Shown here one piece after another: positions 2,910-41,400 of a stretch of 51,032 bases of DNA; position 1 is the first letter of the stretch; each line of letters opens with the position of its first letter. The translations under genes and the position numbers were made by a program. The notes below the pieces were generated by a model. It did not search any database. It was not told where the DNA came from and was given only the letters and a program-made list of their open reading frames with translations. This stretch comes from Bacteroidota bacterium (GTDB taxonomy: Bacteria; Bacteroidota; Bacteroidia; Bacteroidales; CAIXTV01), in contig JBAWXL010000001.1 of NCBI GenBank assembly GCA_037144095.1, forward strand, positions 1 to 51,032. The letters are read 5' to 3'.

Positions 2910-2911
2910 TT

Positions 2912-8700: not shown

Positions 8701-8794
8701 CGCCCTGATAATTGATGGCTTGAGGGGCTTGTGCAAACAAGCCATAGCTGAACAATAAAGATAAGACAAGAGTAAACAACTTTTTCATGAGCAT
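5717..8794 (-). CDS. Secreted collagen-like / tail-fibre-like repeat protein ending in a glycine-rich (GlyR-like) module
   Basis: 1025-aa ORF. The likely start is the Met at 8788 ([21 protein letters not shown]). It has a long GXY tract ([37 protein letters not shown]...). The C-terminal module runs [29 protein letters not shown] ... [11 protein letters not shown] ... GDGVIIISW. It lies 21 bp upstream of the next gene, so the two are likely an operon. Confidence 0.85.
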
Positions 8795-11191: not shown

Positions 11192-11247
11192 TAAAAGCCT
11201 AAATGTCTAAACAGCTAAATGCCTAAAAGCCTATTAGCCTAACTACA
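11192..11247. repeat. 8-bp microsatellite, 7 units (TAAAWGCC-like)
   Basis: The units are TAAAAGCC TAAATGTC TAAACAGC TAAATGCC TAAAAGCC TATTAGCC TAACTACA. The last unit overlaps the stop codon of the gene at 11243. Confidence 0.7.
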
Positions 11248-11980: not shown

Positions 11981-11985
11981 TAGGT

Positions 11986-13041: not shown

Positions 13042-13044
13042 AAA

Positions 13045-14037: not shown

Positions 14038-14136
14038 AAATTTAAAATTTTAACTAAGGTAAATAATATTTGTTTATGGGCAATCTTTTTCTCCTATTCC
14101 AAAGAAGCGATCAGGAATAAATTCAAAGAAGTTTTC

Positions 14137-15432: not shown

Positions 15433-15442
15433 AGTATATGAT

Positions 15443-16399: not shown

Positions 16400-16404
16400 T
16401 ATGT

Positions 16405-16983: not shown

Positions 16984-16985
16984 AA

Positions 16986-18116
16986 CTATTTATTGATGAA
17001 TTCTAATATCGAAGAAGTGATAAATTCCAATTGTTCATCATCCAGTTCCGTATGCATGGGCAAGGAAATTACAGAATGGCTTAACTTTTCGGTTATGGGA
17101 AAATCGCCTGCTTTATTTCGTGGGTCGAGATAGGCTTTTTGTAAATGGAGGGGGACCGGATAATAAATCATGGCAGGAATACCTTTCGCACCTAAATAAT
17201 CAATGAGTTTGGCACGGTCGATGCCATTTGTAACCAGAGTATACTGATGGAAAACATGATCGGTATAAGAAGCTGTTACAGGGGTTTTCAGGTTTGAGCA
17301 ATTTGCAAAAGCGTTATTATAATATGTGGCAGCATAATTTCGTGCTTTGGCATATTCGTCGAGGCGTTGGAGTTTTACTTTCAGAACGGCAGCCTGAATG
17401 CTATCTAATCTTGAATTCACCCCTACAAGGTCGTGATAATAACGAACAACCATGCCATGATTCACAATAATGCGCAATTGTTTGGCAAGTTCATCGTCAT
17501 TTGTGAAAATTGCACCTCCATCACCATAGCATCCCAAATTTTTAGAAGGGAAGAAAGAAGTGCAACCCACATGACCGATGGTGCCTGCTTTTTTGCGACT
17601 GCCATCCATGTAAATATAATCGGCTCCTATTGCCTGACAAGTATCTTCAATTACAAAGAGATTATGTTTTTCGGATATTTCCATAATCTGTTCCATGTTG
17701 GCACATTGCCCAAATAAATGAACCGGAACCACAGCTTTTGTTTTAGGAGTTATCGCTCTTTCGAAAGCTTCAGGGTCAATATTGAATGTGCCTTCTTCAA
17801 CATCTACTAAAACCGGAGTAAGCCCAAGCAAAGCAATTACTTCGGCAGTAGCGATAAAAGTAAAAGAAGTGGTAATGACTTCATCGCCTGGCTTTAGATT
17901 TAATGCCATCATAGCTACCTGCAAGGCATCGGTGCCATTCGCACATGGAATTACATGTTTTACATCTAAATAAGTTTCTAGGTCTTTTTGAAATTGCTGA
18001 ACTGCGGGGCCGTTGATAAAAGCAGTGTTGTCTATTACATCCTGGATAGCTGCGTCAACTTCGAGTTTTATTTTTTGGTATTGGCTCTTAAGGTCAACCA
18101 TTTGTATTTTTTTCAT
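16986..18116 (-). CDS. DegT/DnrJ/EryC1/StrS-family PLP aminotransferase, WbpE-like
   Basis: The ORF extends to 18188. The likely start is [13 protein letters not shown] at 18116. Family motifs are present, including FFPSKNLG (PLP lysine). Confidence 0.9.
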
Positions 18117-18285
18117 ATAAGTTAAGCTTGAGTGAAATTTAGATTTTTTGCAAAGATAGAAGTTTCTAATAAATATCAGAAAATTCAATAAGCTTTTAGT
18201 AGAAATGGGAGGGCTGAAAGCTTGAAAATATTGTTCGTTTTTACTTCCTTTCTATCTTATAATTTATTGATAATAAAATTAATGT

Positions 18286-23313: not shown

Positions 23314-23411
23314 TCTGTTGTTTTCTTTATCACCTTATGAGAAATGGGCTTTGGGGAAAATCTATCACATTAAAACAGAAACTAATTTCATCAAAATTAA
23401 AATTTACTATT

Positions 23412-26400
23412 ATGAAAAAACTTTTATTTTTTTTAATTTTTGCATTTGCTTTGAATGCATTTTTAAATCGCACAGTGAATGCACAAAGCTGGCAAAATGT
23501 TGGCTCTATTGTTGGATTCTCAGATAATAATACTCCAACTCATATAACTCTTGATACCAATGGAGTTCCGTATGTAGTATACAATGATATTGCCAATGGT
23601 AACAAAGCAACCGTTAAGAAATTTGATGGTACGAATTGGGTGCCCGTGGGAGTTGAAGGATTTTCTGCCGGAGTTATAGTAAGTGAAAAAATAGCAATTG
23701 ATCATAACGGGACACCTTTTGTTGCTTATTCGGATTTGGCGAATAGTGGTAAGCTAACGGTTATGAAATTTGATGGGACTAATTGGGTGTCGGTTGGTTC
23801 AACTGGGTTCTCTACCGGACCGACTGGAGATATAGATTTGAAAATAAGCAATAGCGGAATACCTTATGTTGCATTTGTGACAAGTAGTGGCATAACAGTT
23901 AAGAAATTTGATGGTACAGATTGGATAAATGTGGGTTCTGCTAATTTCAATACAACAGCAGGTGAGACATGTTTTGCATTTGATAATAATGAAATTCCAT
24001 ACGTTTCTTTCTTTGATGGCAGTGATGTACAAATCAAAATAATGAAATTTGATGGCAGCAATTGGATTTATGTTGCATCAGGTTTTGGAGGCGGAATGGA
24101 ACTCTTTCCTACTATAGCTTTTAATAGTAGCAATATCCTTTATGTGGCATATTTGAATAAATATCAAGGTTGCGCTACTATGAAAAAACTGGAAAATAAT
24201 AACTGGGTTACGGTGGGTCAACCAAATATTTCTAATTCTATTTATGTTGAGGAAGTAACAATGGCAATTGATAATCATGATATTCCTTATGTGTGTTATC
24301 ACGATTTTTATCAAGACCCTTGGACTGTATTGGACAAAGCTTTTGTAAAGAAATTTGATGGTTCTAATTGGGTAAGTGTTGGAACGGGTAGCATTTCTAT
24401 TGCTATATGGTACCCAAGAATGGTAATAAATAGTAGTGGAACACCCTATATGTGTTTTGTTGATGATGGCGATGGTAATACATTAAAAGTAAATAAATTT
24501 AGTTGCGTCCCCCCATCAATTGCCAGCCAATCAACAGATGGTCAAACTCAATGTATTGGAGGTATATTTAATCCAATCACTGTCGTGTCCAGCGATACAA
24601 ATTTAACTTATCAATGGTATAGCAATTCAGTTGCAAGCAATATAGGAGGCATTTCGCTTGGCACAGATAATGGTGCACAAAGCAGTAGTTATACGCCTCA
24701 ATCTTCTATGGCAGGCACCTTATATTATTATTGTGTAGTAACCGGCGATTGCGATTCTGTTCTAAATAGTGCTGTTTCGGGAGCTTTTATTGTGACTACC
24801 TTACCCAATGCCCCAACCAATACTACTCCACCAGCCAATCAGACAATTAGTAGTGGAACTTCTACCAACCTTTCGGCAAGCGGCATAGGCACTCTTGGCT
24901 GGTATGACGCAGCAAGTGGAGGAAATCTTGTTGGTACAGGAGCTAATTTTACAACTCCTGTGTTGGCAGCCAATACTACTTATTATGTTCAAGACAGTGC
25001 CGATTGCGGAGCAAGTTTAACCCGAACTGCAATTACGGTAACAGTAAATTGCATTGTAAACATCCCCGATGCAAACTTTAAGGCTGCATTATTAGCAATA
25101 CCCGGGCTTGATGCCAACAGCGATGGTGAGATTCAATGTTCAGAAGCTGCTACTTTTACTGGACAACTTATTGTTTCAGGAAAAGGCATTTCGGATTTAA
25201 TGGGGATCGAAGCGTTCACACAAATTTGGTATTTAGATTGCAGATCTAATGCATTAACAAGTTTGGATGTATCAGGCAACACAGCTCTTACTATGTTGTA
25301 TTGTGGCTACAATTCATTAACAAGTTTGAATGTTTCAGCCAATACTGCTCTTCAGTTTTTGGATTGTAGTCCGAATTCGTTAACAAATTTGAATGTATTA
25401 TCCAATATTGCTCTTACTGATTTGATTTGCGGAGGAAATCCATTAACGAGTTTGAATATTTCATCTAATATTGCTCTTACTCGTTTGATTTGCGACCATA
25501 ATCTATTAACAAGTTTGGATGTTTCATCAAATACATCTCTTATTCATTTGTATTGTAACTTCAATTCATTAACAAGTCTGGATGTTTCATCCAATATTGC
25601 TCTTAGTAGTTTGTATTGTGGAGACAATTCATTAACAAGTTTGGATGTTTCATCTAATACAGCTCTTAATCAGTTGGATTGTCACAACAATCATTTGACA
25701 AGCTTGAATGTTTCATCCAATCATGCTCTAACTGATTTAGAATGTCAGTTCAATTCATTAACAAGCTTGGATGTTTCCAATACAAATCTTACTTTTTTAT
25801 TATGTTCCGATAATTTATTGGCAACATTGGATGTTTCGTCTATTCCAACTCTTACCTATTTTAATTGTTGCCAAAATTCATTAACAAGTTTGGATGTGAA
25901 AAATGGAAACAACACAGCCCTGACTTATTTTTATGCATCAAACAATCCTGACTTAACCTGCATTAAGGTTGATGACGTATCATGGTCAAATGCAAACTGG
26001 ACAAATAAAGACTATACCGCAAGTTATAGTATAGATTGCATTTGTGAAAATCCATCCATCACCAGCCAATTAACAGATGGTCAATCCCAATGTATTAATG
26101 GTACATTCAATCCGATTTCAGTTTCAGCCACGGGTACCAATTTAATGTATCAATGGTTTAAAAATAATAGTAATAATTACGATGGGGGCATTTCGCTTGG
26201 CATAGATAATGGGGCACAAACCAATACCTACACTCCTCAAGCTTCTGTTGTTGGCTCCTTATATTATTACTGCATTGTTAGCGGCGATTGTGGCAGTCCG
26301 CAAACCTCTGCCGTGTCAGGTGTTTTTGAGGTAGTTGGAGCCATAGTAACTACAGATGAAATTACGAATATATCGGAAACCGGCATGACCTATGGTGGTA

Positions 26401-29400
26401 ATGTGGTTTCTGATTGTGGATTGGAAGTTACCGCAAGAGGTATTTGTGGAAGCACTTCTCACAATCCTACCTTAGCAGATCATGTTACGGTGGATGGTTC
26501 AGGTACAGGAGCTTTCACTAATAGTTTAACAGGGATTACTGGAGGTTTGACCTATTATGCAAGAGCCTATGCAACGAATAGCGCAGGAACAACTTATGGT
26601 AATGAAGTTACTTTTACAATTCCCTGCACTACCACAGCAATCACCGGTCAATCCATCGATGGTCAGGTACAATGTTTAAATGGCACTTTCACTCCTATTT
26701 CTGTGTCAGCTGTAGGTACTAATTTAATCTATCAATGGTATAAAAACACGATGGCAAGCAATAGTGGAGGCACATTAATAGGTGGGGCACAAAACAATAG
26801 TTACACGCCACAAGCCTCTTTAATCGGCAATGCATATTATTATTGTGTGGTTAGCGGTGATTGTGGAATAGCTCAAACGAGTGCTGTTTCAGGTGCATTT
26901 GAAGTGAAACCTAATACCATTATTACAGGTCAATCCACCAATGGTCAATCCATGTGTTTAAATGGAACTTATTCCGAAATTCATGTGTATGCCGATGGCT
27001 TTGTGCCAACTTTTCAGTGGTATAGCAACACAATTGCAAGCAACACCGGCGGTACTTCACTTGGTTTTGCAAATGGTGCACAGACCAATACTTATACCCC
27101 TCAGGCAAATGTTGTAGGCACACTATATTATTATTGTGAAGTAGGTAGCGGTTGCGGTTTAATGAAAACCAGTGCTGTTTCAGGTGCATTCATCACCAAC
27201 TCAGGCACCCCTCCCGATATGCCTACAAATGTAACAGCTACCCCATCTTCACTGTGTCAAGGTAGTCAAACTCACCTGAATGCAACTTCACCTGGGAGTG
27301 TAATCTTTTGGTACACTTCGCCCACAGGAGGCATGCCAATTGGCAGCTCTGCAAGTGGTGTTGATTTCCCAATTAGTGTAGGTTCTACTACAACTTATTA
27401 TGCTGGAGCATCAACTAATTTTGTGGGAAATCAGACATTTAATTATACGGGCAGTCAGCAAACGTTTATTGTTCCTGCAGGTGTTACAAGTATGGATGTA
27501 ACTTTATATGGTGGTCAGGGCGGACTAGGCATTTTTTCCGGAACTCAAGCAGGAGGACTTGGTGGTATGGCTACCGGAACATTGGCGGTAACCCCTGGAC
27601 AAACATTATATATAAATGTTGGTCAGGGCGGTGTTTCGAGCTCAGGATCTGTTGACTCAGCATATAATGGTGGGGGTGCAGCTTACGGAACTTCAGGCAA
27701 CAACCGTGGTGCCGGAGGTGGAGCTTCCGACATACGTATTAATGGTTCCAGTCTAACAAATAGAGTGATTGTTGCTGGTGGAGGTGGTGGTGCTTGTGGA
27801 CCCTCATATGCAGGAGCTGTCGGAGGTGGTCTTAATGGTGGCAATGCCATAGGTGGCATACCCGGTTTAGGTGGTACACAAATTTCAGGTGGAAACTCGT
27901 ATTCAGGATATGGCTTAACTAACGGATCTTTAGGGCAAGGAGGAGGAGTAGTGGGTACTTCATATACAATAGCTGGCGGTGGTGGTGGCTATTATGGCGG
28001 TGGTGCTGGAAATGGCGCTGGTGGTGGCTCAAGCTATATTGGTGGGGTTATTAATGGAACTACAACCTCAGGGGTTCATTCCGGTAACGGGCAGATAATC
28101 ATTTCATGGAGTGTAGTAGGCTGTACAAGTGTATCACGAACACCAGTTGTGCTAAATATAAATTCTGTTCCTGTTGCTTCAGCTTCCAACAATAGTCCAA
28201 AATGTGCCTCCGATACAATTAATCTCATTTCCGGAGGAGGAGTATCCTATTCTTGGTCTGGTCCTAATGGATTTAATTCCTCAGAACAGAATCCAAGTAT
28301 CAATAATGTTACTTTAGCAAATGCGGGAACTTACACCGTAACAGTAACAAATGAATTTTCGTGTACTTCAATAGCTTCAACCAATGTTATTATTAATGCT
28401 GCACCTACAGTTATAGCAAGCAACAATAGCCCTGTATGTAATGGGAGCAATCTTTTGCTTGCTTCAAGTGAAGGAGTATCCCATTCTTGGATTGGCCCGA
28501 ATGGGTTTAATTCTTCAGAACAAAATCCTTCTATAATAGGCGTGAGTTCTGACGCAGCAGGAACCTATACCGTTTCTGTGATGAATTCTGAAGGATGCAT
28601 TGGTTTAAATACTACGTTGGTTACTTTTAATCCCATCCCCGATCTTGCTTCAAATGTCACGGCAACCCCATCCTCTGTTTGTGCAGGCAGTACCACAAAT
28701 TTGAATGCAACAGCACTAAATCAAACAATATTTTGGTATACTTCACCTATTGGTGGAATTCCTATTGGAAGTTCTCAAAGTGGTGTTGATTTCACGATTA
28801 CTCCTGATTCAACAACCACCTATTATGCTGAGGCATCTTCCACCAATATAGGTAGCCAAACATTTGAATATACCGGTAGTCAACAAACGTTTACAGTTCC
28901 TGCAGGAGTGATGTCCATTTCAATTGACGCTTATGGTGCTCAAGGAGGTGGTAACAAAAATGGAAGTACAGGAGGATTAGGAGGTCGTATACAAGCATCT
29001 TCTGTTCTTGTGACTCCTGGAAGCACGATATACGTTAATGTGGGTGGAGCTGGTGTTATTGGGAACTCTAACGGAGGTTTTAATGGCGGTGGACATAGTA
29101 GCTATTATAATTATACTGGAAGTGGGGGCGGAGCCTCAGATGTAAGAGTTGGAGGTGCAGGTTTATATAATAGAGTAATTGTTGCTGGTGGTGGTGGTGG
29201 GGCCGGCTTAAATTGCTCAGGTAGCAATGAATGGGGAGGAGCTGGAGGTGGCTCTATTGGAGGAACTGGTTGGCAATGTGGTTCGCAAAATTATTATGTT
29301 GGTTACGGAGGCACGCAATATGGAGGTGGAGCTTATGGCACTAATTATGGACAGGGTTGTGCAACCAATGGTAGTTTAGGTCAGGGTGGAAATGGAGCAT

Positions 29401-32400
29401 GCACTTATGGTGGCGGTGGCGGCGGCGGCTATTACGGCGGCGGTGGCGGCGGTTATGGTGGCGGTGGCGGCGGAAGTAGTTATACTTCAGGTAGCCTAAT
29501 TGACGATTTACAAGGTGTAAGAAGCGGAAATGGACAAATTATTATTTCATGGAGTGCACAAGGATGTGCAAGCTTATCCCGAACACCTGTAGTAATAGAT
29601 ATTAAGCCAGTTCCAGTAGTATCAGCTTTGAGCAATAGTCCATTATGTGGAACTTCAACACTTAATTTAACAGGAGAAGGCGGAGTTTCATATTCTTGGT
29701 CAGGTCCGAATAGTTTTAGTTCTACTGAACAGAATCCAATAATTACCAACGTTACTACTGCAAATGCAGGACGTTATTTTGTAACAGTTACAGGTGAAAA
29801 TGGCTGCACAGCAATCGCTTATACCGATGTTATAGTAAATTCATTGCCTTTGTTAACTTCAACGAGCAACAGCCCGATATGCGAAGGATCAACCCTTAAT
29901 TTAACTTCAAGTGAAGGTGTTTCTTATTCATGGACAGGTCCCAATGGTTTTTCTTCCACTGACCGAAATCCTACTTTAAATAATGTAACGCTTGGAGCAT
30001 CCGGAATTTATTCAGTTTCAGTAATGTTTGCAAATGGATGTTTAGTTTCAGTTTTTGATACAGTGTTGGTTCAACCATTATTTGACCCTATTTCCAATAT
30101 TACAGCTACTTCGCCTATTTCTTGTGGACAATCCTCTAGCCTCAATGCCACATCTTTAGGCGGTTCTATTAATTGGTATACTGATGCAATTGGAGGAATT
30201 CCTATTGGCAACTCCAATAGTGGTGCTGATTTCTCTGTATCTCCTACAGTAACAACAATCTATTATGCTGAATCACACAACACATGTTCAAGTGCTATCA
30301 GGACTTCAGTGACAGTTATTGTAAACAGTATAGAAGCTCCTACCAATGCTAATGCATCATCCCCTTCAATTTGTAGTGGAGATTCAACTAATTTAAGTGC
30401 TATTTCAACAGCAAATCTCATATATTGGTATTCATCACCTGTTGGTGGTTCAATTGTTGGAATTAGCAATAGTGGGTCTAATTTTAATGTTAAACCAGAT
30501 TCAACAACCACTTATTATGCGGAAGCAAATAATGTTTTGGTCAATGGAGGACTAGATAGTTTAACTTTTAATTATACAGGCGGAGAACAAACATTTACTG
30601 TTCCTATGGGCGTTAATACTGTTACCATTGAAGCATTTGGAGCTCAAGGCAGCGGAGGCAATGGAGGCTATGGTGGTTTTGCAAAAGGAACAATGAGCGT
30701 TATTCCAGGTCAGGTTTTAAATGTTTATGTTGGAGGTCAGACAGGCTACAATGGTGGTGGTAACGGATGGGCAAGCACTATTAGAAATGGCGGTGGGGCT
30801 TCGGATGTTCGATTAGGTGGAACTGCTTTAACAAATCGCATTATTGTTGCTGGTGGCGGTGGATCCAGTTCTGGCGATGGTAATTATCAAGGAGGAGTAG
30901 GTGGCGGTGGAGTACCTATTGGACTTAATTTTGTTGGTGGAGGCGGAGGAATAGGCTATGGTGGATACGGTGGTGCTGGTTCAATTGATGGCGGCACAGG
31001 AAATACTTCTTGCCATGCAGGAGGAGCAGGTGGTGGTGGAATGAATAGTGGTGGAAGCCCCTCTTGTAATACATGTTATACAGGTTCGTGTGGAACGGCA
31101 GGAACATTAGGACAAGGTGGAAATGGAGATACCTGGGAGAATGGATATTGCCATAATTCTGTTGGTGGCACTTCTGGTGGTGGTGGTGGTTATTTTGGTG
31201 GTGGTGGAACATCAACAGGAAATTGCGGTGGCGGTGGTGGCGGTGGCGGTTCCTCTTGGACTGGAACCCTAACCAATCCTTCTTTTATTGCTGGCTCACA
31301 AAGTGGCAATGGACAAGTGGTGATTTCATGGAATTCAATGCCGGTTACTTGCCCTTCTTCTTCTCGTACTCCTGTTACAGTTACAGTAAATCCAGCATTT
31401 ACAGTAATCGCATCAAGCAATAGTCCATTATGTGTTGGAAATACACTTAATTTGACTTCAAGTGATGGAGTTTCTTATCTTTGGACAGGTCCTGACAACT
31501 TTACATCAACAGAACAGAATCCATCAATTCCCAATGTTAAATGGTCTGCAAGTGGAACCTATACAGTCACAGTCACAAATGAATTTGGTTGTTCAAAAAC
31601 AGCAACAACAAATGTGATTATAGATAATTTTAATGGAACAATTATACCTCAAGGGTCTACAACTTTTTGTATGGGAGGAAGTGTATTATTATCTTCTACC
31701 ACAGGAAATGGATATTCTTACCAATGGAAACTAAATGGAAACGAAATTCCTGGAGCTACAAATTCTACTTATAGCGCAGATTCTTCAGGAGATTACACAG
31801 TATTTGTTACCAATTCAAATGGATGCACAGCTACTTTTGGTAGTGATTTAGTATCAAGTGCTGGTGGATATAGTATTCATAAATTTCTTTCAAATGGCAC
31901 TTTTGTTGTTTCTTCTGACATAAATGCCAAAGTTTTAGTGGTTGCTGGCGGTGGCGGCGGTGGTACCAATATGGGCGGCGGCGGTGGCGGTGGCGGTGTT
32001 ATTTATGACACTAGCTATGCAATTTCTCCGGGCTCATATGCAATAACTGTTGGAACGGGAGTAGCCGGAGCACCCGCAGGCACAGGTGGTCATCCTAATA
32101 TTCCCGGAAGTAATGGTGGGAATTCAATATTCAGCACACTAACTGCTATTGGTGGTGGATATGGTGGTACTTCACCTAATAGTATGGGAATTCAAGTTGG
32201 GAATTCAGGAGGATCCGGAGGTGGTACCTCAGGATATAACGATAATTGGGTTTCCCCTGGTTATTATGGTTCAGGTGAAGGAACTCTAGGTCAAGGCTAT
32301 CGGGGCGGATACCAAGGCAACCAATATTATTCCGGTGGTGGTGGAGGTGCTGGAGGTGCTGGAGCTGATGGAAATAATCAGGCAAATGGCGGGCCTGGTC

Positions 32401-35400
32401 TTTATTGTGATATCCTTGGCACAAGTTACTATTGGGGTGGCGGCGGCGGCGGTGCAGGTTATAGCATTGGCGGTGGCAATGGAGGCATTGGCGGCGGCGG
32501 CGGCGGTGCCATTGGAATAACCACAGGCGGTGCAGGTTATAATAATGGATTACCTGGAACAGATGGATGCACAAGTTGTCAGGCGAATGTACCTGGAGGA
32601 AACGCAGGTGCCAACACTGGAGGTGGTGGCGGTGGCGGTTCACATTATAATTATAATAATAAAGGTGGTGATGGTGGTTCAGGTATTGTTGTTATTGCTG
32701 TTCCAAATTCGATAGATTCTGGAATAAGTTCTCCAGTATCAGTTGTTGTCAGACCATTCCAGACGCCTAATCCTATGATTACAGCAAATGGACCAACTAC
32801 ATTCTGCTCAGGAAATAGTGTGACTTTAGATGCAGGCTCATATAGTTCATATATTTGGAGCTCAGGAAGTATAAGTGAATCAATCAATGTTTCAAATGGT
32901 GGAGTTTATTCTGTAACGATAACAGATGAAAATGGATGTATTGGCTCAACCTCTCAAAATGTTACCGTTAATCCTAATCCAACTTATCCATACATTAGCC
33001 TCAATGGCTCTGCAACATTTTGTGAGGGAGGATCTTTAGTGATGGATGCAGTTGGAGGTTTTTCTTCGTTTGTTTGGAGTAATGGTGTTACATCAGAAAC
33101 AGATACAGTGACATCAACAGGATATTATGTTGTAACTGTAACCAATGAATTTGGATGTGTTAATTCTGCTTCTATTTATATTCAGGTTAATCCTAATCCT
33201 ATTGTTAATATTAGTGCAAATGGACCAGTTGTTTTCTGTCCTGGTGGTTCAGTGGCTTTAGATGCTGGTAGTTATGCTTCTTATTTATGGAATACAAATG
33301 AAGTCACTAAAACAATTACAACATCGAATACTGGAATATATTCGGTGACTGTTACTGATGGAAATGGATGTACTGGTTCTGCTTCACAAGAAGTGACCGT
33401 TAATGGTGTTAAACCGATTGTTACTTGTCCTTCTGATCAGATATTAATTTCAAGTTCTGATCAATGTGGAGCGAATGCTTCATTTACAGCTTCAACAGAT
33501 TTCGGAACTCTTTCTTACTCTTTATATTCCGGAGAAATCACATCTCCATATTTTTTCCCTGTAGGAAACAATATTGTAACTACGATTGCTACTAATGGAA
33601 CTTGTTACGATACATGTATTTTTAATATAACAGTTAATGATACTACTGCCCCTGTTATTTCTGATTGTCCTTCAAATATTGTTCAGACCTGTCAGGGTGC
33701 TGTTTATTATACTGTTCCAACAGTTACTGATAATTGTAATTCCAGTGTTTCAGGAAGTCATACATTTAATTACACAGGATCTCCTGAAACATTTATTGTT
33801 CCAGATGGTGTATTCTCAATAACTGTTAAAGCGTGGGGAGCTGGTGGTGGCGGAGGAGGTCATGATGGACGATTTGGTGGAAATGGAGGTGGTGGCGCTT
33901 TTGTAAAAAGCAACATTCCCGTTAATCCAGGTGAAGTTTTAACTTTATATGTTGGTGGTGGTGGGACATTTGGCGTTGGATGTAATTCCAATAGTGGCCA
34001 TGGAACAGGTGGTTTCGGATTTGGTACTGGAGGAAACGGAGGTGACCCGGGCCCTTGTGGTTGTTCTGGAGCTGGCGGTGGCGGTGGCGGTGGATCTGCA
34101 GTAGTTCATGGAATAACTCCTTTGCTTGTAGCAGCTGGCGGTGGCGGTGGCGGTGGTGCAGGAAATGATGTTGATGCTGGCAATGGCGGCGGAGGTAATG
34201 TAAATGGATATGGTACTAATAATTCATCAGGAGGAAATTTTGGCGCAAATGGTATTAATGTTGGGACTAATGGAGAAAACAGGAGCAGTTCATTATGCGA
34301 TGGAGGTTCTGGTGGTGGTGGCGGCGGCGGTTTCCACGGTGGATTAGGCGGAAGCTCTCCATTTAATGGCGATGCATCTGGTGGTGGTGGTGGTGGTGGA
34401 TCCAGTTTGGGCGATTCCATTGCTAACGGAATTGAAAAAATTGCTGGAAATTCCTTTCTTCTTAGTGCGTTATGCCCAACCTGCTCAACTGGTGGAAGTG
34501 GACAAAATAATGGTAGTTATGGACAAACATCTGGTGGTGATGGATTGCTGGTAATATCTTATGATGCAGTTTTTCCAAAATTAATTCAAACCGCTGGATT
34601 AAATTCAGGAGATGTATTTCCAACAGGAACAACGACAAATACATTTTTAGCTATTGATGGATCCGGAAATACAACAACTTGTTCATTCACTGTAACAGTT
34701 CAGGATAGTATTTTGCCAAAAATAATAACCAACGGAAACACTACTTTCTGTGAGGGAGGTAATGTTGTTTTAGATGCAGGCTCATATTTATCTTATGTTT
34801 GGAATACTGGAGATTCAACAGAAACAATTACTGCTGTTACTGGTGGCGTGTATTCTGTTACAGTTACTAATGGAAATGGTTGTGCTGGTGTAGCTTCAAT
34901 CACACTTATTAGAAACCCAAAACCTGCTCCAACTATTACTGGTGGATCTATGTTCTGCACAAGTGGGATTATTGATGCTGGGATATATAACTCTTATTTG
35001 TGGAATGATGAATCCACACAGGAAACATTAACCGTTACCAGTACAGGGAACTATTCTGTTACTGTAACGGACGGAAATGGGTGTATAGGGACTTCAAGTT
35101 TGGGTGTGGTCGTAAATTCATTACCATCAAATGCCCAAATGATTTCTGGTGCAAACATTGTTTGTCAAGGTCAAAGCGAAACTTTTTCTGTTCCTCAAAT
35201 TAACAATGCAGATTATTATGTTTGGTCTTTGCCTTCGGGTGCAACAGGGTCAAGCTCTTTAGATTCAATAATTGTGAGTTTTAACAATTCTGCAATTTCC
35301 GGAAATATTTCTGTTTTTGGTCATAATAGTTGTGGAGATGGTCTTTCCTCCTCATTATATACTGCAGTAAATCCCCTTCCATCTGGTATTATTACATCTC

Positions 35401-38400
35401 AAGGTTCAACTACTTTTTGTCAGGGAGGAAGTGTTTTATTATCAACTACTTATAATTCAGATTATTCTTATCAATGGACAAATAATGGAAATAATATACT
35501 CGGAGCGACAAATTCAACTTATATTGCCGAATTTGCAGGTATCTTTTCTGTTATTGTAACTAATAGTAATGGTTGTTCATCAACAATTGGCAGCGATTTG
35601 CCGACAGGAGGGACTTTGACTAATATTGGTGGTTATCGAATTCATACATTTACTTCTGATGATACCCTAAATGTTCCTTTTGGTTTTAATACTAATGCAA
35701 GAGTATTAGTTGTTGCTGGTGGTGGTGGTGGTTGTACTGCAGGAGGAGGAGGTGCAGGTGGTTTTATTGAAACAATGGTACCTCTTTCATCCGGTATTAT
35801 TCCTATAACTGTTGGTGCAGGTGGAAATGGCTCTGATGGGAATTCCCCGACAAATGGAGGCAACTCTGTTTTTCAATCATTAATTGCAATCGGTGGCGGT
35901 GGCGGTGGTGGAGCAAATGGTACTGCAACCGCAGGACATGCTGGAGGATCTGGCGGTGGCGGTGGTATGAACTCAAGTATTTCAATTGAAAACGGATATG
36001 GAGGTTCAGGAACTCCAGGGCAAGGTCATGACGGTGGAACTATTGCAGGTCAAAGTTGTAGTCCATGTGGTGGTGGTGGTGGTGCCGGAGGTCCTGGTGG
36101 GGCAGGTGCATATGGTCAAATGTTTGGTGGCCCTGGTTTACCATCTTCTATTTCTGGAACTACAGTTTATTATGCCGGAGGTGGCGGTGGCGGATCATAT
36201 TGTGCTGGTGCAGGACAAGGAGGAATCGGCGGAGGTGGTGCAGGTAATGGAGGATATGGAAGTCCTGGTAATTCTGGAACTCCAAATACCGGAGGTGGCG
36301 GAGGTGGTGCTAATTGGGGACCAGGCGGTGGTGCAGGAGGCTCTGGAATTGTCATTGTAGCTTATCCTGATTCTATAACATCATCAATAACCGTTACAAT
36401 AAATACCGACTCTCCTGTTCCTGGATTTATAGTTTCTGATACTATTCCAGTTGTTGGAGAATTAGTTGCTTTTACTGACACGACACATGGACTTGGAAAT
36501 TCAAGGTTTTGGAATTTTGGGGATGGATCAACTTCAACTGATTTAAACCCTATCCATGCTTATACTCAAGGAGGAATTTTTAATGTAAAACTGATAGAAT
36601 CTAATTGTGCAGGTTCAGATTCAATATTTGAAATTGTACATGTTACTTACCAGATGTGTACAAATTCATCAACTACTGATTCTTATGGAACATTATATGA
36701 TTCTGGCGGCCCCAACAATAATTATAATAGCAATGAAAATTGTTCTTTCCTGATTAATCCGGGTTGCTTAGCAATACTTTTAGATATTACTTCTCTTAAT
36801 ACCGAAAACGGATATGATTATTTGAATTTATATGATGGTGACAATTCAAGTGCACCATTGTTATTACATGCTACTGGAAATATATTGCCGGGCGTTGTGA
36901 CTGCAACTTCAGGAAAATGTTTTGTAACTTTCCATAGTGACGGCTCTGTTGTTGGAAGCGGCTTTACACTTAATTGGACAACTGCCCCACTTACAATTCC
37001 AAGTTCAGCATTTACAATTTCAAATCCTAACCCAATAGCAGGACAATCCGTTGCTTTCATAAATAACACTTCTGGTACCAATACCCAATTATGGCATTTC
37101 GGAGATGGATCAACTTCTACTGATCTTAACCCAACTCATACTTATAACACAGGAGGAATATTTGATATAACATTGGTTGAAATGAATTGTGCAGGCTCAG
37201 ATTCCATAACCCAAACTATAACTGTTGTGCCTCAAGGAACCTATTACCGTATTTGTGCCGATGCATCCAGTTCAGATGCTAGTGGAACATTATTTGATAT
37301 TGGTGGACCTAATCTGAATTATGAAAACAATGAAAACTGTAATTTCCTAATTAACCCAGGTTGCTTAGCAGTAACGTTGAGTTTAACATCTCTTAATACA
37401 GAGAACGGATATGATTATTTGAACTTGTATGATGGAGATAATTCAAATGCTCCATTGTTATTACATGCTACAGGAAGCACATTGCCTGGTGCTGTAACTG
37501 CAACATCAGGAAAATGTTATGTGACTTTCCATAGTGATGGTTCTGCGGTGGGAAGCGGCTTTACACTTAATTGGACAACTGCTCCACTTGTAGTTTCGCA
37601 ACCAGGATTTATAATTTCAAATACAAGTCCGATTGTTGGCCAACCGATTGCTTTTGCTGATACTACTCATGGAAATGGAAATACAAGGTTATGGGATTTT
37701 GGAGATGGAAATATTTCTATTGATTTGAATCCTACGCATTTTTATTCGGACGGTGGAACATACAATATAAAATTGATTGAATATAATTGTTCAGGTTCAG
37801 ATTCTGTGACAAAAACCATCAATGTTCAGAATAACTCTGTTCAGGTTCAGGATGTGACAATCTGTGAAGGAAATTCAGGCGTACTTGCAGCACATTTAAC
37901 CTATGAATGTGCTTCAAGTTATTTGTGGAATACAGGTGAAACCACGGGATCAATAGATGTAACATCAGGTGGAATATACTGCGTGACTGTAACAGACTGT
38001 TTTGGAAACTCTGATGTAACTTGCGCTTCTGTTAATATGAATTTATTGCCTGAAGCTGCAGGATTAATTACTGGATCAGCTTTTGTTTGTTCTGGCCAAA
38101 ATGAAGTTGCTTATATTATTGATACCATACCTAACGCAACAAGTTATATTTGGACTCTTCCTAACGGAACCACAGGAGTAAGCAATAATCGTTATATTGT
38201 TATTAATTATACTGATAATGCTGTTTCTGGTGACATTACGGTTAAAGGTTTAAACAGTTGTGGTGAAGGTATTACTTCAACTTTGCATATTACAGTGAAA
38301 CCACTACCTGTTATTAGCTATACTTCAATTCCTTCATTAAATGTCTGTATAGGTGATTCTATAACTCTAAATGGAACGGGAGCATCTTATTATAGCTGGT

Positions 38401-41400
38401 CGAATGAAATTAATGATGGAGTAACATTTGTCCCAATTAATTCTTCAACGTATTATGTTACAGGAACAGATTCTACCGGATGTTCAGCGATTGCACAGGT
38501 TCATGTCACAGTTGGTGGAACTTTTGATCTTTCGACATCTTTTGTTGATGCTACTTGTGGACAAACTAATGGTAGTGCCTCAGTAATGGCTTTGGGCGGA
38601 AATATTGGAAGTAGTTCTCCTGAAACATATAATTATTTGTGGGATTCCAATGCAGGAAATCAAACTACCGCCACAGCAAATTCAATTGGTGCTGGCTCTT
38701 ATTCAGTTACTGTAACGGATGCTAATGGATGTTCAAAAACGACATCTGTTTCTATATCTGATATACAGGATACTTTAGGAGGTCATATACAAGGGAGTAC
38801 AACTGTGTGTGCAGGGACAAATTCTACCTTGCTAACCTTAAGTGGGTATTCAGGTAATATTATTAAATGGCAATCCTCTCAGGACAACTGGAATACTTTT
38901 AACGATATTACCAATACATCCAATACTTTTACTGTGGAAAACCTAATTAATACTACCCAATATCGTGCAATTGTTCAAAATGGTATGTGTAACCCTGTTT
39001 ATTCAACAATTGCGACTATTACCGTTCATTTATTAGTTGAAGCTGCAGGGGAAATCACCGGACCCATTAGAGTATGTCAGGGCCAAAGCAATGTTTTATA
39101 CAGCGTACCTCCAATAATAAATGCTACTTCTTATATTTGGACTTTACCAAATGGAACGATGGTAAGCACTGTTAAGGATAGTTTGTTTGTTAACTTTACG
39201 AGCAATTTGATCTCTGGAAATATTGCCGTTAAGGGTCATAATGATTGTGGAGATGGAGTTGGGTCAGTTTTGGCAATTGATGTAAATCCATTGCCTGGAC
39301 AACCTGGTTCAATTTCAGGAAATGCCAATATATGTCTAAGCCAGAATCAGTATATGCAAACTTATTCTGTTGCGCCTGTTACAGATGCATTGACTTATAT
39401 ATGGAGTCTCCCCTCTGGAATAATGGGTTCAAGCGATTCAAGTTCTATCAATGTGTATTTAATTTCAGAAGCAAATGGCTATATTACTCTAAAGGGAGAG
39501 AACTCTTGTGGGTTTGGGCCTTCCTCACAATTCCATGTTGTAATAAATTCACCTTCAATTGCTCCCACTGAAATAAGTGGTGAAATTTCCAAATGCATTG
39601 GTTCGAGTGCAACACTTTATGTTAACGGTGGATTTTTAGGTTCAGGAGCTACCTGGCACTGGTATTCTGATAATTTAGGTAATAATCCTTTAGGTACAGG
39701 GTCATCCATTAGTCTTATCCCTGTGTTGAATGACATGCTTTATGTTAGAGCAGAAGGTATTTGTAATAATACTGATTTTGCTGTTAGAACAGTAACCGAG
39801 CCTATCAATCATCCTCCTACATTATCATATACTGGAAATCCAGGATTTACAAATCATTTTGTTGATCCTACCGATGGTCTTCCTTCAGGTCATTTTATTT
39901 TTAAGGTTCGATATACAAATGTTGATGGATTAATGCCTTCTGCAACTTACCCAAGAGTAATGCTTGATTTTGAAGGTAATGGTGTTTACACAAATCCAAA
40001 TGACAGAATGTTCTATATGAACCCTGTTGACCCAAATGACTTAGATGTAACCGACGGAAAAGATTACTATTATGATGCATTTACTCTTCCTGAATCTGCA
40101 AACTGGACAACAACTTTTGTAGCAAGTGATGATTCAACTTGCTCAACATCAACTAATACTTTGGTTGAACCAATGGTAATGACAAAAGCTGATATCACTA
40201 TTTTCGCAAATGATATAACTTTCTCAAATTATCATCCGAATCCTAGTGATTTTATAACCGTTAATGCTACAGTTCATAATTATTCAGGACGTTCAGCCGA
40301 TGAGTTTATTGTTCACTTGAGAAATCAATTTGATACAACAGTTGTTTTCCCGGATATTCTAATTCATCATCTGGGTCCTTATAGTTCTACTAATGTTTCC
40401 TGGGATATTCAAACACCGGATCTTCCAGCATGGTGTCCAATGCAGGTATTTATTGATTATACTAATGTTATTGATGAACCTAATGAACTCGATAATCAGG
40501 CAATCCGTCCATTCACAAATGGGCATTATACTTTACCGGGAAAAATTATGATAACCGCTTATCCAAGTCCTACCGTTGCACCTCGGTATTCCAATGTAAC
40601 TATTAGTGGAAGCGCTTGGTACGTGGGTACCGCTGTACATTTGACAGATTCTTCCTGTGCTGGAGCTACTGTTACATGGAATGTTGTTGAAACTGGGGCT
40701 ACGGGAAGCACTTATTCAAATTCATTAGGCAACTATAGTTTTGGTATTTGGGCACCTTGGAGTCCGAGTACATATCATGTGAAAGTTCACATTACAGACT
40801 ACACTTTAGATGGCGATACTGCAACTCAATTTGATATAACTGAGTCTGTATGTATTGCTCCTGATCTGGTTTCTTCAATAAACATTGGACCTGCAACTGT
40901 TTGGCCCGGATGGTGTCATTGGAATAGCTGCGTTAATATTCTTTTAAATCAAGCTTTAAGCGGAACAGTCACTGTTACAAACCAAGGGAATGCCCCAAGT
41001 GGTCCTTCTACATTAAATATCGATGCCAATGGTTGTTTACCTAATCCTTCGGGAAATTATCCAATACCAGCATTAGCAATTGGAGCTTCTTTTGTTGTTA
41101 ATCTACCTCCAGCTATGACATATAATACCCTAGGAGGCTACGGTATTTCGTCAACAGCAGATGTATTCGGAGTTGTTCCTGAATGTTATGAATACAATAA
41201 CAGCAATTCGGTGTGCATCATGGTTCATCCACCTATGCCTGATATTGTTTCATCAGGCTATCTATATAATGAATACAATGAATGTCAGTTTAACAATATT
41301 ACATTTAATTTGGATAATCAAGGTGGTGTAGCTACAGGTCCTTTTGAAAACTCATTAGATATTTATCTGGGAGGTATTTATCAGACGACTCTTTACAATA

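What the first reader, a model, noticed from the sequence alone, without database searches (positions are those of the whole stretch)
27432..31341. Type I glycine-rich modules (FNYTG..QTF.VP.GV ... GGGASD[IV]R ... NR[VI]IVAGGGGG ... GNGQIIISW) reused in two separate surface-protein loci
Three near-canonical copies lie at 27432-28109, 28857-29552 and 30561-31341. A divergent copy is at 33757-34563. A fifth forms the C-terminus of the collagen-like protein about 17 kb away (5720-6445, minus strand). Each is about 225-270 aa with the same order of conserved anchors separated by poly-Gly runs.

This pattern matches what I know as the bacterial/protist 'glycine rich protein' family (Pfam Gly_rich). 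That family is the one related to the GlyR domain of the ALK/LTK receptor ectodomains, where poly-Gly-II helices pack into a lattice next to a TNF-like fold. No function is established for the bacterial members. Here they sit as repeated, clearly extracellular modules, which would make this locus a good entry point.
Basis: partly seen in the sequence, partly recalled or inferred. Interest (0 to 1): 0.7.

Follow-up and report, generated by a model that had tools for sequence, protein, structure and literature searches.

The report
ALK-type glycine-rich domains on bacterial surface proteins
Five copies of a known, very common glycine-rich domain (the fold that human ALK and LTK receptors use to bind their ligands, also found at phage tail-fibre tips) sit on two surface proteins of an uncultured Bacteroidota bacterium, probably as binding heads, which has not been tested.

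Summary
Five modules of 224-266 aa share the same ordered anchors. Four lie in one 7,166-aa ORF (23337-44837 +). One forms the C-terminus of a collagen-like protein (5717-8794 -).

The interpretation also holds. Four modules pass Pfam PF12810 (ALK_LTK_GRD). The divergent fourth copy fails Pfam but scores 51 bits, full length, against an HMM built only from bacterial homologues. The AlphaFold2 model of module 1 has pLDDT 97.5. Its 21 best PDB matches are all ALK/LTK ectodomains, followed by phage tail-tip and tail-fibre proteins.

The family is large: 31,564 clusters at 50% identity, many of them giant proteins with up to about 10 copies. This is a new member of a known kind.

Two points are new here:
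- All four copies in the giant protein are nested inside Ig-like domains (three Ig_7, one HYR). Removing the module in silico restores a full-length host domain.
- The fifth copy sits in the swappable tip position of a collagen-like fibre. A paralogue and more than 4,500 relatives carry other tips there.

Identity between copies is 48-70% in the scaffold and 13-23% in the loops between glycine runs, where 15 of the 17 cysteines lie. Best reading: rigid scaffolds presenting variable binding loops. The binding function is inferred, not shown.

The parts
23337..44837 (+). Giant surface-protein ORF of 7,166 aa. The probable true start is the ATG at 23412 (MKKLLFFLIFAFALNAF...NAQ signal peptide). 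It is a mosaic of Ig_7, LRR, PKD, PKD_6, CARDB, CUB and HYR domains, four PF12810-type glycine-rich domains and two PF21722 glycine-rich domains.
   Evidence: ORF. Pfam domains. No T9SS C-terminal domain was found.
27210..28172 (+). Nested unit U1: Ig_7 N-part (27210-27437), glycine-rich domain M1 (27438-28109, aa 1368-1591), Ig_7 last strand (28110-28172).
   Evidence: PF12810 at 70 bits. 225 bits against the bacterial HMM. AlphaFold2 pLDDT 97.5. Excising M1 raises the Ig_7 hit from profile 1-65 at 40.6 bits to 1-83/84 at 55.2 bits.
28635..29615 (+). Nested unit U2: Ig_7 N-part (28635-28862), glycine-rich domain M2 (28863-29552, aa 1843-2072), Ig_7 last strand (29553-29615).
   Evidence: PF12810 at 78 bits. 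199 bits. Excision raises Ig_7 from profile 6-67 at 42 bits to 6-84/84 at 59.4 bits. The model of the whole unit has pLDDT 88.7 and pTM 0.80, with beta strands on both sides of the junctions.
30330..31400 (+). Nested unit U3: Ig_7 N-part (30330-30566), glycine-rich domain M3 (30567-31331, aa 2411-2665, with long Cys-rich loop insertions), Ig_7 last strand (31332-31400).
   Evidence: PF12810 at 25.7 bits, partial. 111+23 bits. Excision raises Ig_7 from profile 3-66 at 41.9 bits to 3-84/84 at 60 bits.
33639..34718 (+). Nested unit U4: HYR N-half (33639-33764), divergent glycine-rich domain M4 (33765-34562, aa 3477-3742), HYR C-half (34563-34718).
   Evidence: No Pfam PF12810 hit, but 51 bits over profile 22-267/289 of the bacterial HMM. 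The HYR halves score 19.5 and 33.5 bits alone. Joined without M4 they give profile 2-81/81 at 43.7 bits.
5717..8794 (-). Collagen-like fibre protein of 1,025 aa. It has a signal peptide, a conserved N-terminal domain (about 8420-8794), a collagen G-X-Y tract (about 8129-8389), a repetitive shaft and a C-terminal glycine-rich domain. NCBI calls it 'collagen-like protein'.
   Evidence: Translation. Pfam Collagen at 44.5 bits and PF12810 at 51.6 bits. The shaft hits PHROG tail-fibre, tail-spike and virion-structural families. The N-terminus weakly matches Bdello_MAT_N. NCBI name.
5720..6427 (-). Glycine-rich domain M5 (aa 790-1025). It forms the extreme C-terminal tip of the collagen-like fibre.
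   Evidence: PF12810 at 56.7 bits. 169 bits. It ends at IIISW followed by the stop codon.
3461..5695 (-). Paralogous collagen-like fibre protein of 744 aa. It has the same N-terminal domain, collagen tract and shaft repeats as the 1,025-aa protein, but a different C-terminus with no glycine-rich domain.
   Evidence: BLASTP gives 42% identity over the N-terminal 470 aa and no match at the C-terminal tip. Pfam Collagen. Bdello_MAT_N at 36 bits.
31878..32702 (+). Second-type glycine-rich module T2a (PF21722 Gly_rich_2, aa about 2848-3122). It is not part of the finding but lies in the same protein.
   Evidence: PF21722 at 39.2 bits. Not matched by the type I HMM.
35643..36365 (+). Second-type glycine-rich module T2b (PF21722 Gly_rich_2, aa about 4103-4343).
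   Evidence: PF21722 at 63.2 bits. hhalign against the type I profile is not significant.

Best explanation
The five modules are true members of the ALK/LTK-type glycine-rich domain family (Pfam PF12810). The fold is a compact TNF-like beta-sandwich whose inter-strand loops are drawn out into a lattice of polyglycine-II helices. This part is shown by sequence, profile and predicted-fold evidence.

The modules are displayed outside the cell on two proteins that carry signal peptides.

1. In the 7,166-aa mosaic protein, each of the four copies is inserted into a loop of an Ig-like domain. Three are in the last hairpin of an Ig_7 domain and one is in the middle of a HYR domain. Each module would then project sideways as a knob from a rod of Ig-like domains. 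The insertion is shown in silico. The geometry is inferred.

2. In the collagen-like protein, the module is the distal C-terminal tip of what should be a trimeric fibre. In the paralogue and in thousands of relatives this position holds other swappable tip domains. The tip position is shown. Trimerisation is inferred from the collagen repeats.

The mechanism I commit to is this. The invariant glycine runs and beta strands build a rigid scaffold. The eight or so variable loops between the polyglycine helices are rich in Cys, aromatic and polar residues, and they form the recognition surface. The modules therefore act as target-binding heads for a glycan or a cell-surface ligand on prey, host, particle or neighbouring cell. 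This is how the same fold works at the tip of the cyanophage Pam3 tail fibre, and more loosely how ALK and LTK use it to bind their cytokines. The binding function and the ligand are inferred, not shown.
For: Family identity:
- PF12810 hits for M1, M2, M3 and M5.
- The bacterial-only HMM scores all five copies at 51-225 bits.
- The profile finds only ALK and LTK in the PDB, at E 6e-5 and 4e-3.
- The model has pLDDT 97.5 and pTM 0.93.
- The 21 best Foldseek PDB matches are all ALK/LTK. Next come the Bxb1 tail tip (9d93, E 4e-4) and the cyanophage Pam3 fibre (7ypx, E 1.5e-3).
- 144 viral models match at E<=1e-3, with TM up to 0.80. They include tail-fibre, tail-collar, virion-structural and megavirus collagen-like proteins.
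- The conserved Gly runs align with all 14 PGII helices of ALK, and the large insertions fall between them.

Extracellular display: both proteins have signal peptides. The partner domains are Ig_7, PKD, CARDB, CUB, LRR and collagen.

Nesting: excising each module restores a full-length Ig_7 or HYR profile match with a higher score. The nested-unit model has pTM 0.80 and continuous strands through both junctions. The same split Ig_7 flanks occur in other genomes and in 42 of 513 copies in other giant proteins.

Tip position: the paralogue shares the N-terminus, collagen tract and shaft but not the tip. The shaft has 4,512 homologues. In the top 120 the precomputed Pfam domains besides collagen are mostly Peptidase_S74, and also PF07603, PF09603 or PF07484. 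Only this protein carries PF12810. In the Bdellovibrio MAT fibres, swappable C-terminal tips include TNF-like domains, one of which binds GlcNAc (PMC10769870).

Scaffold versus loops: identity is 48-70% in the scaffold and 13-23% in the loops among the five copies, and 15 of the 17 cysteines lie in the loops. In Pam3 gp24 the distal ends of the glycine-rich motifs are proposed as the receptor-binding site (PMC9608196).
Against: - No binding experiment or ligand exists for any bacterial member, as far as my limited literature search found.
- I could not read model coordinates. I therefore could not check that the variable loops cluster on one exposed face, or that the termini of the module are adjacent.
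- The scaffold/loop contrast is partly circular. The loops were defined as the variable columns of an alignment that includes these five sequences.
The binding surface may therefore differ from the phage case.
- Structural similarity to ALK is moderate (TM about 0.55, rmsd 7-9 A). The phage PDB matches are weak (TM about 0.3).
- The match of the N-terminus to MAT fibres is below the NCBIfam cut-off (30-36 bits against 60).
- Proteins with many tandem copies (up to about 10) would also fit a purely structural role.
Confidence: 0.55

Rival explanations
1. The modules are purely architectural. They would be rigid, protease-resistant bricks that stiffen, space or bulk out the surface proteins, with no ligand of their own. 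The variable loops would simply be unconstrained.
For: Related proteins string up to about 10 copies together, as structural repeats do. Glycine lattices are stiff. Most conserved positions are glycines or core hydrophobic residues. The giant protein already has many other candidate binding domains: LRR, CUB, PKD and CARDB.
Against: Inserting a 225-aa domain into a hairpin of an Ig-like domain adds no length to a rod, so it is an odd way to build a spacer. The fifth copy sits exactly where related fibres carry swappable tip domains. The fold's characterised relatives, ALK/LTK and the Pam3 tail fibre, are ligand or receptor binders (PMC9608196). The cysteines in the loops suggest shaped, stabilised loops rather than drift.
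Confidence: 0.25
2. The modules mediate self-association. The flat polyglycine-II faces would stack against one another or capture glycine-rich segments, driving cell-cell aggregation or matrix formation rather than recognition of a foreign target.
For: The giant protein carries six glycine-rich modules of two types. PMC13243192 reports a moderate-confidence AlphaFold prediction that a hexaglycine peptide docks onto a phage PGII bundle.
Against: Nothing in this window bears on it directly. The PGII helices of ALK pack within one domain. The evidence from the variable loops and the tip position points to heterotypic recognition.
Confidence: 0.08
3. The collagen-like genes are remnants of a prophage or tailocin. 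On this view the fifth copy is a phage tail-fibre receptor-binding tip, not a bacterial surface protein.
For: The shaft matches PHROG tail-fibre, tail-spike and virion-structural families. NCBI names many relatives 'tail fiber domain-containing protein'. The fold is abundant in phage proteins.
Against: Both proteins begin with typical Sec signal peptides, which virion proteins do not normally carry. No other phage gene was seen nearby. The neighbours are polysaccharide-biosynthesis genes, a T9SS substrate and housekeeping genes. The family has more than 4,500 members, which fits a cellular fibre class like the Bdellovibrio MAT proteins (PMC10769870).
Confidence: 0.05
4. The glycine-rich stretches are low-complexity, disordered linkers, and the anchor motifs recur by chance or by composition.
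For: Glycine makes up 30-36% of the residues. A single-sequence phmmer search of the PDB gave only weak, composition-driven xylanase hits.
Against: The independent HMM scores are 51-225 bits. The model has pLDDT 97.5 with no low-confidence segment. Fold matches are specific to ALK/LTK. The family has 20,955 relatives at E<=1e-10.
Confidence: 0.01

Closest known systems
Glycine-rich domain (GRD / TG supradomain) of the animal receptor tyrosine kinases ALK and LTK. Pfam PF12810; PDB 7LRZ, 7NX1, 7N00, 7NWZ, 7LIR.
   Same: Same Pfam family. Same predicted fold, a TNF-like sandwich with a polyglycine-II lattice. All 14 PGII segments have aligned Gly runs. Extracellular, with Cys-containing loops.
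   Different: Sequence identity is only about 20%, and TM on the query is 0.49-0.57. The bacterial module is smaller: about 225 aa against the 279-362-residue ALK/LTK chains it matched. The bacterial-specific conserved motif GGGASD[IV]R...NR is absent from ALK and from M4. Pfam found no EGF-like or kinase domain in the giant ORF. Its ligand is unlikely to be an ALKAL-type cytokine.
Bacterial 'glycine-rich protein' / 'glycine rich domain-containing protein' family (NCBI names), including multi-copy giant proteins of Bacteroidota.
   Same: Direct homologues at 40-60% identity. Similar architectures: 2 to about 10 copies in proteins of 1-8 thousand aa. The same partner domains: Ig_7, PKD, and T9SS or IPTL-CTERM sorting signals.
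   Different: Nothing essential. This window adds a documented nesting inside Ig_7 and HYR domains. It also adds a collagen-fibre tip context, which was not seen among the 270 sampled relatives.
Phage tail-fibre and tail-tip proteins with a TNF-like plus glycine-rich distal domain. Cyanophage Pam3 gp24 (PDB 7YPX/7YFW; PMC9608196) and the mycobacteriophage Bxb1 tail tip (PDB 9D93).
   Same: Same type of fold. Predicted phage proteins match with TM up to 0.80 at about 30% identity, and PHROG families match at E 1e-22 to 3e-27. The Pam3 domain sits at the distal tip of a trimeric fibre, as M5 does. PMC9608196 describes a conserved glycine stem with a variable distal tip.
   Different: The window proteins carry signal peptides and are cellular. 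No fibre-chaperone gene was identified next to them, and I did not search for one specifically. Four of the five copies are internal insertions rather than tips.
Bdellovibrio 'mosaic adhesive trimer' (MAT) fibres (PMC10769870; NCBIfam NF053851).
   Same: A conserved N-terminal domain, a long trimeric shaft and a swappable C-terminal tip. In relatives the tips include Peptidase_S74. In Bdellovibrio they include TNF-like domains, one of which binds GlcNAc. Paralogues within one genome differ at the tip.
   Different: The N-terminal match is below the family cut-off (30-36 bits against 60). The shaft here contains a collagen tract. The paper does not mention glycine or collagen at all. The organism is a Bacteroidota MAG, and nothing is known about whether it is predatory.
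Pfam PF21722 (Gly_rich_2), the second glycine-rich module type in the same ORF.
   Same: Similar size and glycine content, and it sits in the same protein. M1 gives a full-length but sub-threshold PF21722 match (22.5 bits against 24.3). Some homologues carry both Pfam labels.
   Different: The type I HMM does not detect the two type II modules, and hhalign is not significant. Any homology between the two types is remote and was not established here.
C1q/TNF superfamily proteins (a collagen stalk with a C-terminal TNF-like head). This is an analogy from general knowledge.
   Same: The layout of the M5 protein: a collagen triple-helix tract upstream of a C-terminal head that contains a TNF-like sandwich.
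   Different: No sequence relationship was tested. A long non-collagen shaft separates the stalk from the head. The head carries the PGII lattice, which C1q lacks.

Membership tests
Pfam PF12810 ALK_LTK_GRD (formerly Gly_rich) | Score at or above the Pfam gathering threshold (24.5 bits). | tested here: met
   M1 70, M2 78, M3 25.7 (partial; profile 11-127) and M5 56.7 bits. M4 gives no Pfam hit. M4 is accepted on the bacterial-only HMM instead: 51 bits over profile 22-267/289.
Pfam PF12810 ALK_LTK_GRD (formerly Gly_rich) | Fold: a TNF-like beta-sandwich interwoven with a glycine-rich lattice, as in the solved ALK/LTK structures. | tested here: met
   The AlphaFold2 model of M1 has pLDDT 97.5 and pTM 0.93. 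Foldseek ranks 1-21 are all ALK/LTK, with probability 1.00 and E 4e-7 to 4e-5. This is a predicted structure, not an experimental one.
Pfam PF12810 ALK_LTK_GRD (formerly Gly_rich) | Glycine runs that correspond to the 14 polyglycine-II helices. | tested here: met
   In an hmmalign of M1-M5 with ALK 723-961, every listed PGII segment of ALK aligns with a Gly-rich run in the modules (helix list from PMC13243192).
Pfam PF12810 ALK_LTK_GRD (formerly Gly_rich) | Reciprocal search: a family profile retrieves ALK/LTK as the best solved relatives. | tested here: met
   The A2 profile against PDB sequences finds ALK at E 5.9e-5 to 2.2e-4 and LTK at 4.2e-3, over the whole domain. The next hits have E>0.1.
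ALK/LTK receptor tyrosine kinases (the whole-protein family) | An EGF-like domain, a transmembrane helix and a tyrosine-kinase domain downstream of the GRD, with ALKAL cytokine ligands. | tested here: not met
   Pfam finds no EGF or kinase domain in the giant ORF or in the collagen-like protein. The transmembrane helix and the ligands were not tested. These proteins share only the domain, not the receptor.
Phage receptor-binding fibre tips of the Pam3 gp24 type | [quoted passage not shown] | tested here: inconclusive
   The fold match to 7ypx is E 1.5e-3 with TM only 0.35. Predicted phage proteins match better, with TM up to 0.80. M5 is at the C-terminal tip of a collagen-containing protein. 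Trimerisation was not testable. The four copies in the giant protein are not tips.
Phage receptor-binding fibre tips of the Pam3 gp24 type | Virion association and a dedicated fibre chaperone. | not tested
   I made no specific search for a chaperone. The signal peptides and the non-phage neighbourhood argue against virion proteins.
Mosaic adhesive trimer (MAT) fibres, NCBIfam NF053851 | An N-terminal domain scoring above the model cut-off (60 bits). | tested here: not met
   30.5 and 36.1 bits for the two collagen-like proteins. They may work like MAT fibres, but they are not filed as members.
Mosaic adhesive trimer (MAT) fibres, NCBIfam NF053851 | A conserved N-terminus and shaft with exchanged C-terminal tip domains among paralogues and relatives. 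| tested here: met
   The paralogues share 42% identity over the N-terminus, collagen tract and shaft, with unrelated C-termini. The domains listed for relatives are mostly PF13884, and also PF07603, PF09603 or PF07484. PF12810 appears only in this protein among the top 120.
Pfam PF21722 Gly_rich_2 | Score at or above the gathering threshold (24.3 bits). | tested here: not met
   The type I modules score 22.5 bits (M1) and 11.1 bits (M5), with no hit for the others. Only the two separate type II modules pass, at 39.2 and 63.2 bits.
Collagen triple-helix repeat proteins (PF01391), for the protein that carries M5 | A G-X-Y repeat tract above the Pfam threshold (27.2 bits). | tested here: met
   44.5 bits at aa 163-221. 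The G-X-Y run is visible in the translation.

The most novel reading that the evidence does not exclude
The ALK-type glycine-rich domain may be an ancient prokaryotic and phage 'binder cassette'. On this reading it is a fixed polyglycine-II/TNF-like scaffold with eight or so diversifiable loops. Bacteria deploy it modularly, either plugged into hairpins of Ig-like domains to make multivalent adhesins or swapped onto the tips of collagen-like trimeric fibres. The animal ALK/LTK ligand-binding domain would then descend from such an adhesin head. This locus shows both deployments side by side in one genome, so it could serve as a compact system for finding the first ligand of a bacterial member.
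Probability: 0.3. Interest if true: 0.6.

Novelty: new member of a known kind. Interest (0 to 1): 0.4.

Why it matters
The domain family is known and very large, but I found no report of a function for any bacterial member. This window supplies two pieces of context that turn 'glycine-rich protein' into a testable hypothesis.

1. The module is used as an insert that projects from Ig-like domains.
2. The module occupies the exchangeable tip position of a collagen-like fibre, a position held in related systems by adhesive or processing domains.

The five paralogous copies have a conserved scaffold and divergent, cysteine-bearing loops. They form a natural loop-swap series for binding studies. 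A ligand for one of them would give the first function for a bacterial member of this family. It would also bear on where the ALK/LTK ligand-binding domain came from.

If no binding is found, the result is an ordinary annotation: five PF12810 domains in two surface proteins of a Bacteroidota MAG.

Tried and rejected
I corrected them to 33765-34562.
- A single-sequence phmmer search of M2 against the PDB returned only weak, glycine-driven xylanase hits. The profile was needed to reach ALK.
- NCBIfam has no model that matches the module.
- hhalign of the type II module T2b against the type I profile was not significant: probability 7.9%, 15 columns. I therefore do not claim that the two types are homologous.
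- Excising the type II modules from their flanking Ig-like domains gave only small gains: 22.2 to 29.7 bits and 18.2 to 21.9 bits. Nesting of type II is suggestive only.
- Literature. 'PF12810' occurs in one unrelated fungal genome paper. The ALK/LTK/PXL/TNFL term search found nothing. The two ALK structure papers I requested (PMC9343967, PMC8639777) are not held. The ALK review does not mention bacteria. The Bxb1 search gave nothing useful.
- Relaxed Pfam searches of the giant protein's N- and C-termini, the collagen protein's shaft and the paralogue's tip gave only sub-threshold hits. A first attempt failed on a frame error.
- A search for collagen tracts among 270 sampled glycine-rich-domain proteins found none. 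I cannot say how common the collagen-plus-GRD layout is in bacteria.
- The disordered-linker and prophage readings were considered and rejected (see the rival explanations).
- Model coordinates are not exposed by the tools. Mapping the variable loops and measuring the distance between the module's termini could not be done.

Full report
**Source of the window.** The window is a 51,032-bp contig of an NCBI metagenome-assembled genome labelled 'Bacteroidota bacterium' (proteins MEI8201372 to MEI8201387). A near-identical contig occurs in ENA assembly ERZ4200879. G+C content is 38%.

**The observation.**
- A single ORF runs from 23337 to 44837 on the plus strand and encodes 7,166 aa. An internal ATG at 23412 opens a typical signal peptide and is the likely true start.
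- A motif scan of its translation finds FxYTG four times and [IV][IV]IS[WY] at matching distances. This places:
  - M1 at 27438-28109
  - M2 at 28863-29552
  - M3 at 30567-31331
  - M4 at 33765-34562
The exceptions are copy 4, quoted one base out of frame, and the end of copy 3, quoted 10 nt too far.
- The fifth copy, M5, is at 5720-6427 on the minus strand. It is the last 236 residues of a 1,025-aa protein (5717-8794) that begins with a signal peptide and contains a G-X-Y collagen tract.
- The modules are 224-266 aa long and 30-36% glycine. They share 53 invariant columns.
- An HMM built only from 55 homologues of other organisms scores them at 225, 199, 111+23, 51 and 169 bits. It finds nothing else in the six-frame translation of the window. 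The repeat is real and complete.

**What the modules are.**
- Pfam PF12810 (ALK_LTK_GRD, the renamed 'Gly_rich') hits M1, M2, M3 and M5 above threshold and misses M4. The bacterial-only HMM covers M4 from end to end, so M4 is a divergent member and not something else.
- A profile of the modules plus homologues, searched against all PDB sequences, retrieves human ALK (E about 6e-5) and LTK (4e-3) over the whole domain, and nothing else of significance.
- With a 60-sequence alignment, AlphaFold2 folds M1 at mean pLDDT 97.5 and pTM 0.93. It shows nine beta strands and a long central stretch without regular secondary structure.
- The 21 best Foldseek matches in the PDB are all ALK or LTK ectodomain structures (probability 1.00, TM 0.49-0.57 on the query). 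Then come the mycobacteriophage Bxb1 tail tip and the cyanophage Pam3 tail fibre.
- Against predicted viral structures there are 144 matches at E<=1e-3, with TM up to 0.80. They include cyanophage virion proteins, tail-fibre and tail-collar proteins and megavirus collagen-like proteins. PHROG families of unknown function match at E 1e-22 to 3e-27.
- I aligned M1-M5 and ALK residues 723-961 to the family HMM. Each of the 14 polyglycine-II helices listed for ALK (table in PMC13243192) falls on a conserved glycine run of the modules. The large insertions of M3, M4 and M5 fall between those runs.

**How common the family is.**
- The profile finds 31,564 cluster representatives (50% identity) at E<=1e-3 among 1.84 billion proteins, and 20,955 at E<=1e-10. 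The top of the list is made of proteins of 1,000-7,800 aa with 2 to about 10 copies.
- A scan of one genome per species confirmed at least 220 loci and returned 80. Most are in Bacteroidota. Others are in Acidobacteriota, Competibacteraceae, Myxococcota, Planctomycetota, Actinomycetota, Eremiobacterota and Bacilli. Up to seven or eight tandem copies occur in one Flavobacteriales ORF.
- NCBI already names such proteins 'glycine-rich protein' or 'glycine rich domain-containing protein'.
- This is a new member of a known and populous kind.

**New point 1: the four copies in the giant protein are nested.**
- The sequence before M1, M2 and M3 matches the first 65-67 positions of the 84-position Ig_7 profile and stops at '...TTTYYAxA'. 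The sequence just after each module ('GC.S.SRTPV.V.V') is the missing last strand.
- Joining the flanks without the module raises the Ig_7 score from 40.6, 42 and 41.9 bits to 55.2, 59.4 and 60 bits. Coverage extends to profile positions 83-84.
- M4 splits a HYR domain. The halves score 19.5 bits (profile 2-40) and 33.5 bits (profile 46-81). The joined sequence scores 43.7 bits over profile 2-81/81.
- A model of the whole M2 unit (327 aa) has pLDDT 88.7 and pTM 0.80. Strands run continuously from the Ig_7 penultimate strand into the first strand of the module. They run back from the module's last strand to a final Ig_7 strand. This suggests a two-stranded neck. I could not inspect coordinates to confirm the packing.
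- A regular-expression search finds the same split Ig_7 flanks in other genomes, including Taibaiella koreensis. It also finds them in 42 of 513 complete copies in other giant proteins. The arrangement recurs but is a minority.

**New point 2: the fifth copy sits in a swappable tip position.**
- The adjacent paralogue (3461-5695, minus strand) shares the N-terminal domain, the collagen tract and the shaft repeats (42% identity over about 470 aa). It has an unrelated C-terminus.
- The N-termini of both proteins weakly resemble the N-terminal domain of the Bdellovibrio mosaic adhesive trimer fibres, at 30-36 bits against a cut-off of 60.
- The whole protein has 4,512 relatives at E<=1e-10. Sources call them 'tail fiber domain-containing protein' or 'trimeric autotransporter adhesin'. 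In the top 120, the precomputed Pfam domains besides collagen are mostly Peptidase_S74, and also PF07603, PF09603 or PF07484. Only the window protein carries PF12810.
- In Bdellovibrio, such fibres have an invariant N-terminus and exchanged C-terminal tips. The tips include TNF-like domains, one of which binds GlcNAc (PMC10769870).
- The collagen tract implies a trimer. This is an inference from established collagen chemistry and was not tested.

**Likely mechanism.**
- Across 60 family members, conservation is concentrated in the beta strands and the glycine runs. Variable columns and insertion hot spots lie at M1 residues 32-40, 68-75, 85-92, 121-127, 142-144, 158-164 and 172-181. For the comparison I widened 142-144 to 134-146 and added 204-214.
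- Among the five window copies, identity is 48-70% in the scaffold and 13-23% in these loops. Fifteen of the 17 cysteines lie in the loops. The loops were defined from an alignment that contains these sequences, so the contrast is partly built in.
- The published description of cyanophage Pam3 gp24 has the same logic: a conserved glycine-rich stem with a variable distal tip, proposed to bind the host receptor (PMC9608196).
- I therefore favour rigid scaffolds that present variable recognition loops, used as lateral knobs on an Ig-like rod and as the head of a collagen-like fibre. The fold and the display are supported by computation. Binding and the ligand are inferred.
- Rivals:
  - A purely architectural role is plausible, given the long tandem arrays elsewhere.
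  - Homotypic association through the glycine faces is speculative.
  - A prophage origin for the fibre genes is argued against by the signal peptides and the non-phage neighbourhood.
  - Disordered linkers are refuted.

**Comparison with the known family.**
- The modules belong to the PF12810 domain family. They are not ALK/LTK receptors: Pfam finds no EGF-like or kinase domain in either protein.
- They differ from ALK in size and in a bacterial-specific conserved motif, GGGASD[IV]R...NR, which is absent from ALK and also from M4.
- They may work like phage fibre tips and like MAT tips. I do not file them in either family. The fold match to solved phage tips is weak (TM about 0.3), and the MAT N-terminal model is below its cut-off.

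**Verdict.** This is a new member of a known kind. Interest is moderate (0.4). A specialist would not be surprised by the domain itself. The nested architecture, together with the fibre-tip copy, offers a practical route to the first ligand for a bacterial member.

Noticed in passing
window 31878-32702 and 35643-36365 (+): The same giant ORF holds two further glycine-rich modules of a different Pfam family (PF21722 Gly_rich_2; 39 and 63 bits). The type I HMM does not detect them, and hhalign to type I is not significant. In-silico excision from the flanking Ig-like domains gives small score gains, which hints that they too are nested.
   Followed up: partly
window 3461-5695 (-) and homologues P0277-P0395: A paralogous collagen-like fibre gene lies directly downstream of the one that carries the glycine-rich tip. 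It is part of a family of more than 4,500 'tail fiber domain-containing' proteins with signal peptides. The domains listed for the top 120 are mostly Peptidase_S74, and also PF07603, PF09603 or PF07484. This resembles the Bdellovibrio MAT fibres, but in Bacteroidota.
   Followed up: partly
window 44085-44834 (+), C-terminus of the giant ORF: The giant protein has no recognisable T9SS C-terminal sorting domain, although the neighbouring 992-aa protein (18347-21325, -) has CHU_C. It ends instead in two dockerin/EF-hand-like repeats (GDFDQNLLVDFDDFNIF / ADLNGNGLVDFDDFNIF). Pfam detects these only at E 0.27.
   Followed up: partly
window 23412-24536 (+), N-terminal 375 aa of the giant ORF: About seven repeats of 45-50 aa (motif ...KKFDGTNWVxVG...) follow the signal peptide. 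No significant Pfam family matches them (only a weak BNR_4 hit). They could form a propeller-like domain.
   Followed up: partly
window 11243-18188 (-): A block of nucleotide-sugar and polysaccharide biosynthesis genes lies between the two surface-protein loci. It includes CpsB/CapC, a dTDP-glucose 4,6-dehydratase, a UDP-glucose/GDP-mannose dehydrogenase family enzyme, a GFO/IDH/MocA oxidoreductase, a hexapeptide acyltransferase and a DegT aminotransferase.
   Followed up: no
window about 36600-38600 (+), giant ORF aa about 4440-5090: The giant ORF contains two CUB domains (92 bits in total) and PKD domains. The translation shows three near-repeats of a PKD segment, and a CUB-like block follows each of the first two. 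CUB is mainly known from animal extracellular proteins, so bacterial copies next to an ALK-type domain are worth a look.
   Followed up: no
window 23337 versus 23412 (+): The longest ORF starts 25 codons upstream of the ATG that opens the signal peptide (MKKLLFFLIF...). The annotated start may be too early.
   Followed up: no
loci L025, L022, L026, L074 (genome contigs): Other Bacteroidota MAGs encode ORFs with 5 to 8 tandem type I glycine-rich domains. In L025 the copies follow each other about every 350 aa. These are much denser arrays than in this window.
   Followed up: partly
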